64,000 nucleotides of DNA from the human T2T-CHM13v2.0 reference genome, Homo sapiens (GCA_009914755.4 CP068257.2:23744001-23808000), one strand, 5' to 3'. Positions 13,743 to 23,400 are shown, counted from the stretch's first letter. Program-made: numbers and translations. The notes: a model not told the origin generated them from the letters alone.

Positions 13743-15015
13743 GGCAATCAGGCCACAAGGGTTTCACAAGGACATTCCTGGTGCTGTGCTGAGCTTGAAG
13801 CCACTAGGCTTGATTTACCTACAACCCAGTGAAACACCAGCTGTGGTGGCTAAGGGATTGTTTGTGTCAACCTCTCCCCCAACTCCAGGCAGCGCAGCTT
13901 TCAGCTCCAGGAAAAACTTTTTCCACTTGCAGAAAGGAGAGGGAAGAATACAGAGGACTTTGTCTTGCAACTTGGGTGCCAGCTCAGTCACAGTAAAATA
14001 AACCACAAAGCAGATTCTTAAAGCCTCTGATTCTAGGGCCCGGCTCCTGGACAGCATTTCTAAACCTGCTTGGGCCAGAAGGGAACCTGCTACTCTCAAG
14101 GTAAGGACCCGGTACTGGCAGCATTCCCCACTTGCTGATCAATCGTCCCTTAAGCCTTAAATCAGCATCCGCTGTAGCTCGGCAGTAGTTGCCACAAGCT
14201 TTGGGTGAGACCCAGTGCTGTGCTGGCCTCAGGTGTGACCCAGCATAGTCCCCGCTATGATGTCCAAGGGACTGCTCACATCACCTCTCCCCCAGCTCCA
14301 GTCAGCCCAGCACAGAGGGAGAGACTCTTTCTGTTTGGGGAAAGTGAGGAAAGATAATGACAGACTTTGCCTGGTAATCCAGATAATTTTTCTAGATCTT
14401 ATTCAAGCCCACCAAGGCAGCACCTCTAGGAGTCTGTAAGAATTACTAAGGTACTGGGCTTGGAGCAACCCCTAGTGTGGATACGGATGTAGTGACCAAA
14501 GACTTAGATCACAACACTCAATTCTCTTTGAATACATGAAAAGCCTTCTCAACAAGGACAAGTCCAAACAAGCCCAGAATGTGATGATTAGAATAAATCT
14601 TCAGTTCCCAAATATCAATGAACATGCACAAGTATTTCCATAAAACACATGGAAATTAAATAATATGGTCCTGAATGACCAGTGAGTTAATGAAAAAATT
14701 AACAAGATAATTCTTAAAAATCTCTTAAAACAAATGAAAGTATCACATACACCTATGGAATACAGCAAAAGCAGTCCTAAGAAGAAAGTTTATAGCAAGA
14801 AGCACCTACATCAAGAAAGCAGAAAAACTTAATGTGCACCTAATGATGAATCTTAAAGAACTGGAAAAACGAGCAAACTGAACTCAATATTAGTAGAAGA
14901 AAAGAAATAAGAAAGATCAGGGCAAATACAACTGAGATTGAAATTTTTAAAAACACAAGAGATTAATAAAACAAAAAATTGGTTTTTTGAAAAGATAAAC
15001 AAAATCAACAAACCT

Positions 15016-15456
15016 TGTGATGTTTAATACTGAATGTCAACTTGATTGGATTGAAGGATGCAAAGTATTGATCCTGGGTGTGTCTGTGAGGGTGTTTCTA
15101 AAGGAGATTAACATTTGAGTCAGTGGACTGGGTAAGGCAGACCCCCCCCCTTAATCTGGGTGGGCACTATCTAATCAGCTACCAGCATGGCCAGAAAAAA
15201 AAGCAGGCAGAAGAACATGAAAACACTAAACTGGCTTAGCCTCCCAGCCTACATCTTTCTCCTGTGCTGGATGCTTCTTACCCTCAAACATCAGACTCCA
15301 AGTTCTTCAGATTTGGGACTCAGACTGGCTTCCTTGCTCCTCAGCTTGCAGATGGTCCATTGTGGGACCTTGTGATTGTGTGAGTTTCTTAATAAACTCC
15401 ATAGATATATATATATCCTGTTAGTTCTGTTCCTCTAGAGAACCCTGACTAATACA
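15016..15456 (+). mobile_element. 5' LTR of the MaLR element: MaLR LTR of a non-THE1 subtype
   Basis: tgtgatgtttaatactgaatgtcaacttgattggattgaaggatgcaaag...gtgtgtctgtgagggtgtttctaaaggagattaacatttgagtcagtggactggg...ctgggtgggcactatctaatcagctaccagcatggccag...gcagatggtccattgtgggaccttgtgattgtgtgagtttcttaataaactcc...ctctagagaaccctgactaataca. Homologous to the 3' LTR but strongly divergent from it. Confidence 0.7.
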
Positions 15457-17020
15457 GATATTGGTACCAGTAGAGTGGGGCACTGCTGAAAAGATACCCA
15501 AAATTGTGGCAGTAAGTTTGGGGTTGGGAAATAGGCAAGGGTTGGAACAGTTTGGAGGACTCAGAAGAAGACAGGAAAATGTGGGAATGTTTGGAACTTT
15601 CTAGAGACTTGCTGAATGTCTTTGCCCAAAATGCTGATAGCAATATGGATGGTAGGGTCTGGGTTGAGGTGGTCTCAGATGGAGATGAGAAACTTTTGGG
15701 GAACTTGAGCAAAGGTAACTCTTGTTATGTTTTAGCAAAGAGACTAACAGCATTTCGCCACTGCCCTAGAGATTTGTGGAACTTTGAACTTGAGAGAAAT
15801 GAGTTAGGGTATCTGGCAGAAGAAATTCCTAAGTAGCAAAGCATTCAAAAGGTGACTTGGGTGCTGTTAAAGGTATTCAGTTTTATAAGGGAAGCAGAGC
15901 ATAGAAGCTGAGAAAATTTGCAGCTTGACAATGCAATAGAAAAGAAAATACCATTTTCTGAGGAGAAATACAAGCCACCTGCAGAAATTTGCATAAGTAA
16001 CAAGAAGCTGAATGTTAGTCCCCAAGATAATGTGGAAAATGTCTCCAGGGCATGTCAGAGGTCTTCACAGCAGCCCCTCCCATCACAGACCGGAGGCCTA
16101 GGAAGAAAAAGTGGTTATGTGGACCGAGCCCAGGGTCCCCCTGCTGTGTGTAGCCTAGGGACTTGCTGCCCTGGTTCCCAGCTGCTCCACCTGTGGCTTA
16201 ACGGGGACAATGTAGAGCTCAGGCTGTGGCTTCAGAGGGTGCAAGCTGCAAGACTTGGCAGCTTCCACATGGTGTCGAGCCTGCCAGTGCACAGAAGTCA
16301 AGAATTGGGGTTTGGGAACCTCTGCCCAGATTTCAGACAATATATGGAAATGCCTGGATGTCAGGCAGAAGTTTTCTGAAGAAGCAGGACTCTCATGAAG
16401 AACCTCTGCTAAGGCAGTGCAGAAGGAAAATGTGGGGTTGGAGTTCCCACACAGTATCCCTACTGGGGCACTGCCTAGCAGAGTTGTGAGACGAGTTGTC
16501 CTCCAGACCCCAGAATGGGAGATCCATTGATAGTTTGCACTGTGTGCCTGGAAAAGCCATAGACACTCAACACCAGCCCATGAAAGCAGCCAGGAGCGAG
16601 ACTGTACCCACAAAGCCACAGGAGCAGAGCTGCCCAAGACCACAGTAACCCACCTCTTGCATCAGCGTGATGCAGATGTGAGACATGGAGTTAAAGGAGA
16701 TCATTTTGCAGTTTTTAGATTTGACTGTCCTGCTAGATTTCAGACTTGCATGAGGCCTGTAGCCCCTTTGTTTGGCCAACTTCCCCCAATTTGGGACAGG
16801 TATATTTACCCATTGCCTGTACCCCATTGTATCTAGGAAGTAACTAACTTATTTTTACAGGCTCATAGGCAGAAGGGACTTGCCTTGTCTCAGATGAGAC
16901 TTTGGACTGTGGACTTTTGAGTTAATGATGAAATGAGTCAAGACTTTGGGGGACTGTTGGGAAGGCATGATTGATTTTGAAATGTGAGGACATGAGATTT
17001 GGCAGGGGGCAAGGGTGGAA

Positions 17021-21426: not shown

Positions 21427-22731
21427 GAATCAAATTAAAATGGATTAAAGTCTTAAATCTAAGACCTCGAACTATGAAACTGATAAAAGAAAACATTGAG
21501 AATCTCTCCAGGACACTGGGCGGGGCAAAGATTTCATGAGCAATACCCCATAACACAGGCACCAAAGCAAACATGAACAAATGGGACTGCATCAAGTTAA
21601 AAAGCGTCTGTAAAGCAAAGGATACAATCAACAAAGTGAAGAGACAACCCAAAGAATGGGAGAAAATATTTGCAAGCTATTCCTCTGACAAGGGATTAAT
21701 CACTAGAATATATAAGGAACTCAAACAACTCTGCAGAAAAAAAAATCTAATAATCTGATTTTTAAAATAGGCAAAATATTTAAATAGATGGTTCTCAAAA
21801 GAAGACATACAAATGGTAAACACACACATGAAAAGGTGCTCAGCATCACTGATCACCAGAGAAATGCAAATAAAAACTACAAGGAGAGATTATCTCACCC
21901 CAATTCAAATGGCTTATATCCAAAAGACAGGCAATAACAAATGCTGGCTAAGATGCGGAGAAAAGGGAATCAATCCTTGTACACTGTTAGTGGAAATGTA
22001 AATTAGTACAACCACTATGGAGAACTGTTTGGAGGGTTCCCAAAAAACTAAAAATGGAGCTACTATATACTCCAGCAATCCCACTGCTGGGTATATACCT
22101 AAAAGAAAGAAAATCAGTATACCAAAGAGATATCTGCACTTCTATATTTCTTGCAGCACTGTTTACAATACCTAAAATTTGGAAGCAACCTGAGTGTCCA
22201 TCAACAGATGAATAGATAAAGAAAATGTGGTACATATACACAATGGAGTACTTTTCAACCATAAAAAAGAATGAGATCCAGTCATTTGCAACAATGTGGA
22301 TGGAACTGGAGATCATTATGTTAAGTGAAATAAGCCAGGTACAGAAAGACAAACATCCCATGGTGGGATCTAAAAATCAAATCAATTGAACTCATTGACA
22401 TAGAGAGTTGAAGGATGGTTTATGAGAGGGTGGAAATGGTGGTGAGGGGTTGGGGGGGCAGGTTGGGGTGGTTAGTGGGTACCAAAAATTTAGAAAGAAT
22501 GAATAAGACCTACTATTTGATAGGACAGTAGGGAGACTATAGTCAATGATAACTTAATTGTATGTTTTAAATAAACTTAAATAATGTAATTAGATTGTTT
22601 GTAACTCAAAGGATAAACGCTTGAGGGGATGGATACCCCAATTCTCCATGATGTGCTTATTTCACATTGAATGCCTGAATCAAAACATCTCGTGAACCTC
22701 ACAAATACATACGCCTACTATGTACCCACAG
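21427..22731 (+). mobile_element. L1 (old L1P/L1M-type) 3' end: ORF2 C-terminal third plus 3' UTR
   Basis: Translation from 21430 gives KIKLKWIKVLNLRPRTMKLIKENIENL...[50 protein letters not shown]...[58 protein letters not shown]...[39 protein letters not shown], which is L1 ORF2 C-terminus with stops. A 3'-UTR string follows, ending ...ggatggataccccaattctccatgatgtgcttatttcacattgaatgcctgaatcaaaacatctcgtgaacctcacaaatacatacgcctactatgtacccacag. Confidence 0.8.
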
Positions 22732-23400
22732 AGGGTTGAGGAGGATGTGAAACCCTTATACACTGTTGGTAGTATTGTAAGTTAGCACAGCTATTTTGGA
22801 AAACAATAAGGAGGTTCCTCAAAAAACTAAAAATAAAATTACCATATCATCTAGCAAACCCACCTTATATGTATATGCCTTTTTTAAAAAATAAAATTAT
22901 GTTATTTGTGACAACACGGATGGACCTAAAGGACATTATGTTACATGAAATAAGCCGGACACGGGGAAGCAAATACCATATGATCTCACTCATGTGGAAT
23001 CTCAGATAGTTGAACTCATAGAAGCAGGGAGTAGAATGGTGGTTTTACAGGCAGGGGATGAAGGGATGGTGTGGATGCGGAGAGTTAATAGGTACAATCT
23101 TTCAGTTATATAGGAGGAATCAGTTCTGGTGTTCTATGGCACAGTACAGTAACTATAGTGAATATTAATAACTTAATATTAATATTAAGGTATTTTAGAT
23201 TTCAAAAAGCTAGAAAAGAGGATTTTCATGACAAGGAAATGATAAATACTTGTGATCAATATGCCAATTATCCTGATTTGATCATTCCACTATGTATGCA
23301 TGGAACATCACATTGTATCCCTCCCATAAATATACACAATTATTGTCAATTTAAAATAATATAACACTTAAAAAGACAAAGAAATTTAAAATAAATACAA
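22732..23400 (+). mobile_element. Second, separate L1 3' fragment (ORF2 C-terminus with internal deletion, plus 3' UTR)
   Basis: agggttgaggaggatgtgaaacccttatacactgttggtagtattgtaagttagcacagctattttggaaaacaataaggaggttcctcaaaaaactaaaaataaaattaccatatcatctagcaaaccc (CWRGCGE..G.L.HCW...ELPYD region). Then ...ttgtgacaacacggatggacctaaaggacattatgttacatgaaataagccggacac... and a 3' UTR ending ...catcacattgtatccctcccataaatatacacaattattgtcaatttaaaataat. Its coordinates overlap those covered by the preceding L1 3' end, so it is a distinct copy. Confidence 0.7.

What the first reader, a model, noticed from the sequence alone, without database searches (positions are those of the whole stretch)
14445..23400. 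Nine-kilobase L1 pile-up: three partially overlapping L1 3' portions, all on the + strand, around an unclassified block
L1 copy A (14445-20101) carries ORF2 from the end of the EN domain to the ELPYD region. It is unusual in being 3'-truncated, with no ORF2 end, 3' UTR or A-tail. After a 1.3-kb non-L1 block, copy B (21427-22731) restarts about 700 bp upstream in L1 coordinates (KWIKDLN region) and runs to the 3' UTR. Copy C (22732-23400) then starts again in the CWRGCGE region and runs to a 3' end. A versus B and A versus C overlap in L1 coordinates but are visibly diverged from one another. They are therefore separate copies or an old duplication rather than one interrupted element. 3' truncation of A suggests a later deletion or rearrangement, or an insertion of the block plus B into A with loss of sequence.
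Basis: partly seen in the sequence, partly recalled or inferred. Interest (0 to 1): 0.5.

Follow-up and report, generated by a model that had tools for sequence, protein, structure and literature searches.

The report
Old L1 interrupted by inverted L1

Summary
A covers ORF2 aa ~211-1177, B covers aa 959 to the 3'UTR end without an A-tail, and C covers aa ~1133 to an A-rich 3' end. Two points need correcting.

First, A is not contiguous. It contains a 2.37-kb MaLR LTR element (15017-17387, 5-bp TSD) and an Alu (18489-18753, 19-bp TSD). It also extends upstream into a GC-rich probable 5'UTR starting near 12956.

Second, the "unclassified 1.3-kb block" is L1 on the minus strand. It holds the ORF1 C-terminal domain (Pfam Tnp_22_dsRBD, E=1e-12), the inter-ORF spacer and a 5'UTR homologous, in inverted orientation, to the one upstream of A.

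Best model (confidence about 0.5): A and C are the two halves of one old full-length L1. A candidate 15-bp TSD flanks its outer ends (13/15 matches, about 1% by chance). A younger 5'-inverted L1, made of the block and B joined head to head, inserted into it. The insertion is flanked by a duplication of about 135-140 bp of the host L1.

The main rival is independent insertions joined by later deletions. Either way these are known element families and known mechanisms, so interest is low.

The parts
12941..12955 (+). Candidate left target-site duplication of host L1 X (CAATTAAACAGACAA)
   Evidence: 13/15 match to 23365-23379. A match this good occurs in about 1% of random AT-rich window pairs of the same sizes; about 7-12% without the positional constraint.
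12956..14377 (+). Probable 5'UTR of host L1 X: GC-rich, with repeated units, interrupted by an Alu
   Evidence: 13421-14377 is homologous, in inverted orientation, to 20393-21355, which adjoins ORF1 on the minus strand (blastn E 1e-39 to 1e-41; 65.5% over 391 columns). 12969-12982 matches L1HS positions 14-27 at 12/14. That places L1 nt 1 at 12956, but the match alone is not significant. GC is about 0.51-0.53.
13441..13752 (+). Alu inserted in the X 5'UTR, with A-tail; coordinates include the right TSD copy (AAGGCAATCAGG)
   Evidence: 80-85% identical to five other Alus in the window. The TSD is visible in the sequence: 13431-13442 and 13741-13752.
14378..14538 (+). Unassigned stretch between the 5'UTR repeats and ORF2 of X; ORF1 and most of the EN domain are missing here
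   Evidence: 14378-14660 has no significant similarity to the 5'UTR/ORF1/ORF2 N-terminus of the two other L1s in the window, and 14378-14645 has none to D. tblastn with ORF1p finds nothing here.
14539..15016 (+).
   Evidence: tblastn. blastn 14647-15005 matches the other L1s at 66-67%.
15017..17387 (+). ERVL-MaLR-type LTR element nested in X: 5' LTR 15017-15447, internal part, 3' LTR 17024-17387. TSD AACCT at 15012-15016 and 17388-17392
   Evidence: Sequence shows TG...CA LTR ends and the TSD. ORF2 is continuous across the insert: aa 376 at 15015, aa 375 at 17387. 16409-17389 is 72% identical to another MaLR copy at 63044-63995, and 17021-17396 is 73% identical to an LTR at 3543-3921. The two LTRs do not align with each other.
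17388..18488 (+). L1 X (copy A), ORF2 aa 375-733, including the reverse transcriptase domain
   Evidence: tblastn. Pfam RVT_1 E=6.5e-20.
18489..18753 (-). Alu nested in X, flanked by a perfect 19-bp TSD AAAAATCAGTAGCATTTCT (18470-18488 and 18754-18772)
   Evidence: Sequence. blastn matches to the other Alus.
18754..20117 (+). L1 X (copy A), ORF2 aa 736-~1177. The last ~135-140 bp (about 19975-20117) are duplicated as the start of C
   Evidence: tblastn. Alignments.
20118..20405 (-). L1 Y, inverted segment D: ORF1 C-terminal domain (aa ~255-338) and inter-ORF spacer up to about the ORF2 start
   Evidence: tblastn with ORF1p: aa 261-322 at 20399-20214, E 1e-10. Pfam Tnp_22_dsRBD E=9.8e-13, 48.4 bits against a cut-off of 22.2. 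Aligns to the ORF1 ends of the other L1s.
20393..21427 (-). L1 Y, inverted segment D continued: 5'UTR-like repeated units, 5'-truncated relative to X
   Evidence: Inverted homology to 13421-14377 and internal direct repeats at offsets of about 255-325 bp.
21428..22733 (+).
   Evidence: tblastn. Sequence. 70-71% identical to the other L1s.
22734..22880 (+).
   Evidence: tblastn. Alignments.
22881..23364 (+). C2: ORF2 end (aa ~1233-1275), 3'UTR and short A-rich tail. About 155 bp are deleted between C1 and C2
   Evidence: Global alignment to B. 59.7% identity to B over 464 columns.
23365..23379 (+). Candidate right target-site duplication of X (CACTTAAAAAGACAA)

Best explanation
The region is a fossil nest of retrotransposons with no present function. 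An old, originally full-length L1 (X) inserted on the + strand.

A somewhat younger L1 of a related subfamily (Y, 20118-22733) then inserted into the C-terminal part of X's ORF2. Y has the head-to-head layout of a 5'-inverted L1. Its 3' part (B, ORF2 aa 959 to the 3'UTR) is in direct orientation. A 5' part (D: 5'UTR, ORF1 C-terminus, inter-ORF spacer) is inverted. This is the layout twin priming produces, in which both ends of the staggered break prime reverse transcription on one L1 RNA. In this case about 2.9 kb of RNA between the two cDNAs was left uncopied.

The insertion left about 135-140 bp of X (aa ~1133-1177) on both sides, like an oversized target-site duplication, and Y carries no poly(A). 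Later a MaLR LTR element and two Alus inserted into X. Small deletions removed X's ORF1 and EN region, part of D, and aa ~1182-1233 of C.

Shown: the identity, strand and L1 coordinates of every piece, and the TSDs of the MaLR element and the Alus. Inferred: that A and C are one element, that D and B are one event, and the order of events.
For: Piece identities: (ORF2p and ORF1p coordinates; Pfam RVT_1 and Tnp_22_dsRBD).

The block is L1 in antisense, with a 5'UTR homologous to the sequence upstream of A.

D and B abut head to head with no spacer. 5' inversions occur in about 18-22% of human L1 insertions, and only 46% have the two cDNAs within 20 bp of each other (PMC12016303).

The duplicated X segment ends exactly at D's left edge and restarts exactly at B's right edge, as expected if D and B entered as one unit.

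A and B are sister copies relative to the two other L1s in the window (500/500 bootstraps). A's terminal branch is longer (0.183 against 0.121), so the host is older than the insert.

C's terminal branch relative to B is also about 1.5-fold (0.286 against 0.19; my four-point calculation from the distances).

Transversion distance between the X and D 5'UTRs is 0.125, against 0.103 for A-B.

A candidate 15-bp TSD lies directly before the inferred L1 start and directly after C's A-rich tail (about 1% by chance).

Poly(A)-less 3'-truncated insertions and very large TSDs are described outcomes of L1 integration (bioRxiv 10.1101/2024.12.14.628481).
Against: B has no A-tail at its junction with C, which is atypical for target-primed insertion.

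A target duplication of 135-140 bp is about ten times the usual length.

The two copies of the duplication are only 65% identical (K2P 0.48, CI 0.33-0.68, n=129). That is at or above the upper limit expected if they arose when B inserted: about twice B's branch, 0.24-0.38.

A and C share no private substitutions beyond consensus states.

D's leftmost L1 coordinate (about the ORF2 start) is 2.9 kb from B's start. D itself has an internal jump from the 5'UTR to ORF1 aa ~255.

The outer TSD was found post hoc. The match to the L1HS 5' terminus is not significant on its own.

No consensus library was available, so subfamilies were not assigned.
Confidence: 0.5

Rival explanations
1. Independent insertions joined by deletions. 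X (A), a 5'-inverted or separate D, B, and an unrelated old 5'-truncated L1 (C) landed near each other. Later genomic deletions, or a target-site deletion caused by the insertion of Y, removed A's 3' end, D's ORF2 part, B's A-tail and C's upstream flank. This created the A|D and B|C junctions.
For: B has no poly(A), and no short TSD is visible at either junction. A-end against C1 is no more similar (65-72%) than either is to B (70-74%). The locus clearly has several other internal deletions. L1 insertions with target deletions and 3' truncation are documented.
Against: It needs at least two deletions whose ends happen to leave A and C colinear with only about 135 bp of overlap. It leaves the 13/15 outer TSD match and the equal A/B and C/B branch ratios as coincidences.
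Confidence: 0.3
2. One rearranged element. All of A, D and B descend from a single L1 copy, either through a DNA-level inverted or segmental duplication or through one complex multi-template retrotransposition event giving a + / - / + architecture. On this reading the A/B and X-5'UTR/D overlaps are paralogous duplicates, not separate insertions.
For: A and B are each other's closest relatives (500/500). The two 5'UTR copies are homologous at a similar transversion distance. D carries part of what X lacks (ORF1 C-terminus and spacer).
Against: A's branch is about 1.5 times B's, whereas duplicates should be equal; this is borderline, roughly 2 SE by my own rough estimate. No simple inversion or duplication path yields the observed order; I tried several by hand. 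A separate explanation for C is still needed.
Confidence: 0.1
3. One reading: three independent + strand L1 3' portions around a non-L1 block of unknown nature.
For: A, B and C overlap in ORF2 coordinates and are diverged from one another.
Against: The block encodes an L1 ORF1 C-terminal domain on the minus strand and an L1-associated 5'UTR repeat.
Confidence: 0.05

Closest known systems
Nested LINE-1 insertions (L1 within L1) in primate genomes
   Same: An older L1 is split into colinear flanking parts by a younger L1 and further interrupted by Alu and LTR elements, each with its own TSD. The sequence is AT-rich, decayed and non-coding.
   Different: The host segment flanking the insert is duplicated over about 135-140 bp instead of the usual 7-20 bp. 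The insert has no A-tail.
5'-inverted L1 insertions attributed to twin priming (Ostertag and Kazazian 2001; surveyed in PMC12016303)
   Same: Two L1 segments joined head to head: the 3' one direct, the 5' one inverted, with only a few ambiguous bases at the junction.
   Different: The inverted segment comes from the 5'UTR/ORF1 region, about 2.9 kb upstream of where the direct segment stops. Poly(A) is absent.
L1 insertions with 3' truncation, target deletions or large target duplications (bioRxiv 10.1101/2024.12.14.628481)
   Same: These are atypical resolution products of L1 integration. They would account for the missing A-tail and the long flanking duplication.
   Different: Those were observed as fresh somatic or experimental events. 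Here there is only an old, mutated germline fossil, so the mechanism cannot be verified.
ERVL-MaLR LTR retrotransposons (THE1/MST/MLT1 group; family names are from my memory of the consensus sequences)
   Same: The nested 2.37-kb element has TG...CA LTR ends, a primer-binding-site-like start of the internal part, a 5-bp TSD and an internal region 72% identical to another copy in the window.
   Different: Its two LTRs are not alignable with each other.

Membership tests
LINE-1 (L1) retrotransposon | ORF2 with reverse transcriptase domain, colinear with known L1 ORF2p | tested here: met
   tblastn with ORF2p (sequence verified against PDB 8uw3): A aa 211-1177, B aa 959-1266, C aa 1133-1175. Pfam RVT_1 E=6.5e-20 for A.
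LINE-1 (L1) retrotransposon | ORF1 (L1 Tnp_22 domains) upstream of ORF2 on the same strand | tested here: met
   Met only for segment D on the minus strand: ORF1p aa 261-322 and Tnp_22_dsRBD E=9.8e-13. ORF1 is absent from X (deleted).
LINE-1 (L1) retrotransposon | Endonuclease domain at the ORF2 N-terminus | tested here: not met
   No ORF2 aa 1-210 anywhere in 12956-23400. This is expected for deleted or truncated fossils and does not affect family assignment.
LINE-1 (L1) retrotransposon | 3' A-rich tail and flanking target-site duplication | tested here: inconclusive
   C ends in a short A-rich run followed by a 13/15 match to the sequence just upstream of 12956 (about 1% by chance). A and B have no tail.
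5'-inverted L1 (twin-priming product) | Adjacent inverted 5' segment and direct 3' segment joined head to head | tested here: met
   D (minus strand, 20118-21427) abuts B (plus strand, 21428-22733) with no spacer.
5'-inverted L1 (twin-priming product) | Inverted segment maps just upstream of the start of the direct segment in L1 coordinates | tested here: not met
   D's highest L1 coordinate is about the ORF2 start, and B starts at aa 959, so the gap is about 2.9 kb. In PMC12016303 only 46% of inversions lie within 20 bp of each other, so gaps occur, but their size range was not given.
5'-inverted L1 (twin-priming product) | Both segments from one RNA (same subfamily and age), with poly(A) and a TSD around the pair | tested here: inconclusive
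   Transversion distances to X are similar for D (0.125) and B (0.103). There is no poly(A). The flanking duplication exists but is about 135-140 bp long and 65% identical.
ERVL-MaLR LTR retrotransposon (nested element 15017-17387) | TG...CA LTRs, 5-bp TSD, internal region homologous to other copies | tested here: met
   Sequence. TSD AACCT with ORF2 continuity across the insert. 72% identity over 1019 bp to 63044-63995.
ERVL-MaLR LTR retrotransposon (nested element 15017-17387) | The two LTRs of one insertion are homologous | tested here: not met
   Global alignment score 126.5 against shuffled 110 +/- 9. No repeat family links the two LTRs.
Alu SINE (13441-13752 and 18489-18753) | About 300-bp element similar to other Alus, with A-tail and flanking TSD | tested here: met
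   70-85% identity to other Alus in the window. TSDs of 12 bp and 19 bp. No Rfam hit at gathering score, so the identification rests on those matches and on my recognising the Alu sequence.

The most novel reading that the evidence does not exclude
The D+B unit with its ~135-140-bp flanking duplication and missing poly(A) could be a germline fossil of a non-canonical L1 integration. In that reading twin priming left a 2.9-kb uncopied gap, the target-site duplication was oversized, and the 3' end was primed internally or truncated. Such outcomes have so far been documented mainly in cultured cells and tumours. Separately, the nested MaLR element, with a perfect TSD but two unrelated LTRs, could record an inter-family LTR exchange.
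Probability: 0.2. Interest if true: 0.3.

Novelty: already known. Interest (0 to 1): 0.1.

Why it matters
It matters little beyond correct annotation. It shows how a block that looks non-L1 inside an L1 cluster can be the inverted 5' part of an L1, and how a 3'-truncated L1 can have its 3' end sitting 2.6 kb downstream. If the atypical features (long target duplication, no A-tail, large gap at the inversion) reflect the original integration, the locus would be one more germline example of non-canonical L1 resolution. That would be of modest interest to people who catalogue L1 integration outcomes.

Tried and rejected
1. Rfam scan of 12500-24000: no hits at gathering score.

2. Looked for L1 similarity in 14378-14645 against the 5'UTR/ORF1/ORF2 N-termini of both other L1s and against D: nothing above shuffled scores.

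3. Tried to match D's 5'-most 93 nt to X's 5'UTR: not significant.

4. Tested whether 12956 onwards resembles the L1HS 5' terminus. Only a 12/14 match at L1HS positions 14-27 was found, not significant alone. R1 in the window is 5'-truncated and could not serve as a reference.

5. Tested whether C is too diverged from B to belong with A. Raw K2P (0.476 against 0.303) suggested so. After four-point branch decomposition the C/B and A/B branch ratios are equal (about 1.5), so this argument against the A+C model was dropped.

6. Considered twin priming on the minus strand, or A+D as an inversion pair. Rejected, because A (plus) then D (minus) is tail to tail, the opposite of the twin-priming geometry.

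7. Considered A+B as one interrupted element. Rejected because of the 218-aa overlap.

8. Looked for subfamily consensus sequences in the literature (PMC9252281). The held supplement contains no sequences, so no subfamily assignment was possible. Subfamily impressions (B and C L1MA/L1PB-like 3' ends; MaLR LTR types) are from memory only.

9. Looked for LTR-LTR homology in the MaLR element with the repeat finder and a global alignment: none.

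
Full report
**Context.** The window is primate-like repeat-rich DNA. It holds several Alus, MaLR elements and at least two further long L1s. R1 spans about 47770-53490, with ORF1 and ORF2 69-81% identical to human L1 proteins. R2 spans about 54500-60080. 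No repeat library was available. The ORF2p sequence matched PDB entry 8uw3 over residues 1-1275 at 2934.6 bits, so the ruler is sound. I used R1 and R2 as internal nucleotide references.

**Checking the observation.** tblastn places the following on the + strand:
- A: ORF2 aa 211-376 at 14539-15015, aa 375-733 at 17387-18461, aa 736-1177 at 18753-20120.
- B: aa 959-1266 at 21429-22356.
- C: aa 1133-1175 at 22734-22862.

Pfam finds RVT_1 in A (E=6.5e-20). B continues through a 3'UTR to '...CTACTATGTACCCACA' at 22733 and is followed directly by C's 'GAGGGTTGAGGAGGATGTG', with no A-run. After an internal deletion of about 155 bp (aa ~1182-1233), C continues through the ORF2 end and a 3'UTR that aligns with B's, down to an A-rich end near 23364. 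The overlaps are diverged. A-B is 73.7% over 654 bp, or 75.4% over 639 ungapped columns with K2P 0.30. A-C is 72% over 97 bp, or 65% over 129 columns.

The GC profile already shows that 15000-17400 is not L1. Positions 15017-17387 are an LTR element. It starts TGTGATG... and ends ...GACTAATACA, with an internal region whose 3' part (16409 onwards), together with the 3' LTR, is 72% identical to another copy at 63044-63995. It is flanked by AACCT on both sides. ORF2 is continuous across it, with aa 376 at 15015 and aa 375 at 17387. A minus-strand Alu at 18489-18753 carries a perfect 19-bp TSD. A is thus one colinear ORF2 remnant carrying two later insertions.

**The 'unclassified block' is L1 on the other strand.**
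- tblastn with ORF1p hits 20399-20214 on the minus strand (aa 261-322, E=1e-10).
- The translated fragment matches Pfam Tnp_22_dsRBD, the L1 ORF1 C-terminal domain (E=9.8e-13, 48.4 bits against a cut-off of 22.2).
- It aligns with the ORF1 ends of R1 and R2 and continues through the inter-ORF spacer to about the ORF2 start, near 20118-20128.
- The remaining GC-rich part (20393-21355) consists of repeated units at offsets of about 255-325 bp.
- That part is homologous, in inverted orientation, to 13421-14377, immediately upstream of A on the + strand (blastn E 1e-39 to 1e-41; 65.5% over 391 columns).

The same sequence therefore sits upstream and in sense orientation of L1 coding sequence twice. 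It is best read as the 5'UTR of this L1 lineage. That is an inference, because R1 and R2 have unrelated 5'UTRs.

**Extent of the host element.** The element containing A extends upstream to about 12956. It is interrupted by an Alu at 13441-13752, which has a 12-bp TSD. It has lost ORF1 and ORF2 aa 1 to ~210. At 12969-12982 there is a 12/14 match to positions 14-27 of the human L1 5' terminus. That would put L1 nucleotide 1 at 12956, but the match alone is not significant.

**Relationships among the pieces.**
- Over aa 959-1177, A and B group together against R1 and R2 in 500/500 bootstraps. Terminal branches are 0.183 for A and 0.121 for B. They are related subfamilies or one subfamily, with A older.
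- C looked more distant from B (K2P 0.476 over 269 ORF2 columns). The same four-point decomposition gives 0.286 for C and 0.19 for B, again a ratio of about 1.5. C is therefore compatible with A's age.
- The X and D 5'UTRs differ by a transversion distance of 0.125, close to the 0.103 between A and B. That fits D being coeval with B.

**Junctions.**
- D and B meet head to head at 21427/21428 with only a few ambiguous bases.
- A ends (aa ~1177) exactly where D begins.
- C begins (aa ~1133) exactly where B ends.

About 135-140 bp of L1 (aa 1133-1177) therefore flank the D+B unit as a direct duplication. Immediately upstream of 12956 lies CAATTAAACAGACAA, and immediately after C's A-rich tail lies CACTTAAAAAGACAA. 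A 13/15 match this good occurs in about 1% of random AT-rich window pairs of the same sizes, and in 7-12% without the positional restriction.

**Best model (confidence about 0.5).** One old full-length L1 (X = 12956-20117 plus 22734-23364) is bounded by that TSD. It was interrupted by a younger L1 (Y = D+B) that has the architecture of a 5'-inverted insertion. 5' inversions are found in 18-22% of human L1 insertions, and only 46% have the two cDNAs within 20 bp of each other in L1 coordinates (PMC12016303). A gap is therefore not unusual in itself, although the size range was not given and 2.9 kb is large. Poly(A)-less 3'-truncated insertions, and duplications regarded as large TSDs, are described products of L1 integration (bioRxiv 10.1101/2024.12.14.628481). 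The MaLR element and both Alus came later, as did several small deletions.

**Weak points of the model.**
- B has no A-tail.
- The flanking duplication is about ten times the usual TSD length.
- Its two copies are only 65% identical (K2P 0.48, CI 0.33-0.68). That is at the upper edge of what twice B's branch allows (0.24-0.38).
- The outer TSD was found post hoc.

**Rivals.**
- Independent insertions trimmed and joined by deletions, or by an insertion-mediated target deletion (confidence about 0.3).
- A single rearranged element (about 0.1).

**Comparison with the known, and verdict.** Every component belongs to a well-known family: L1, Alu and ERVL-MaLR. The architecture (nested insertion, 5' inversion, internal deletions) is routine for old mammalian L1 clusters. 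Nothing suggests a function or a new kind of element. Novelty is 'already known' and interest is about 0.1. The only mildly unusual details are the long flanking duplication, the missing A-tail, and the MaLR element whose two LTRs do not align despite a clean TSD. RepeatMasker or Dfam coordinates and orthologous loci would settle the A+C and D+B assignments.

Noticed in passing
window 15017-17387: The nested MaLR-type LTR element has a clean 5-bp TSD (AACCT), and the L1 is continuous across it. Yet its 5' LTR (15017-15447) and 3' LTR (17024-17387) are not alignable: score 126.5 against shuffled 110 +/- 9. From memory the 5' LTR looks MLT1/MST-like and the 3' LTR THE1-like. The two LTRs of one integration should be identical at birth, so this suggests later gene conversion or replacement, or a chimeric element.
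   Followed up: partly
window 13421-14377 (+) and 20393-21355 (-): The probable L1 5'UTR of this lineage is built of diverged tandem units at offsets of about 255-325 bp in D and about 414 bp in X. This is reminiscent of the monomer organisation known from mouse L1 promoters. It is unrelated to the 5'UTRs of the two other L1s in the window.
   Followed up: partly
window 47770-53490 and about 54500-60080: Two further long + strand L1s. R1 has ORF1 and ORF2 69-81% identical to human L1 proteins, is 5'-truncated within the 5'UTR, and has an L1PA-type 3'UTR followed by an Alu at 53494-53802. R2 is older, with ORF2 40-70% identical. Further L1 fragments lie at 60497-60846 (+, ORF2 aa 324-442) and 40029-40193 (-, aa 1202-1269).
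   Followed up: partly
window 63044-63995 (-) and 3543-3921 (+): Another MaLR copy runs off the window end; it is 72% identical to 16409-17389. A solo-like LTR at 3543-3921 is 73% identical to the 3' LTR at 17021-17396.
   Followed up: no
window 12844-12858: A 15-nt poly(A) run lies about 100 bp upstream of the inferred L1 start. It is possibly the tail of another retroelement to the left, in 12500-12858.
   Followed up: no
window 23844-23879: A (CA)n-type microsatellite with CACACACATACA units lies just downstream of the pile-up.
   Followed up: no
window 22868-22900: The joint of C's internal deletion reads GCCTTTTTTAAAAAATAAAATT, which contains a TTTTTT/AAAAAA stretch resembling an L1 endonuclease target site. 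Its L1 coordinate (aa ~1182) lies only about 17-20 bp beyond the point where A ends (aa ~1177). This is possibly a coincidence.
   Followed up: partly
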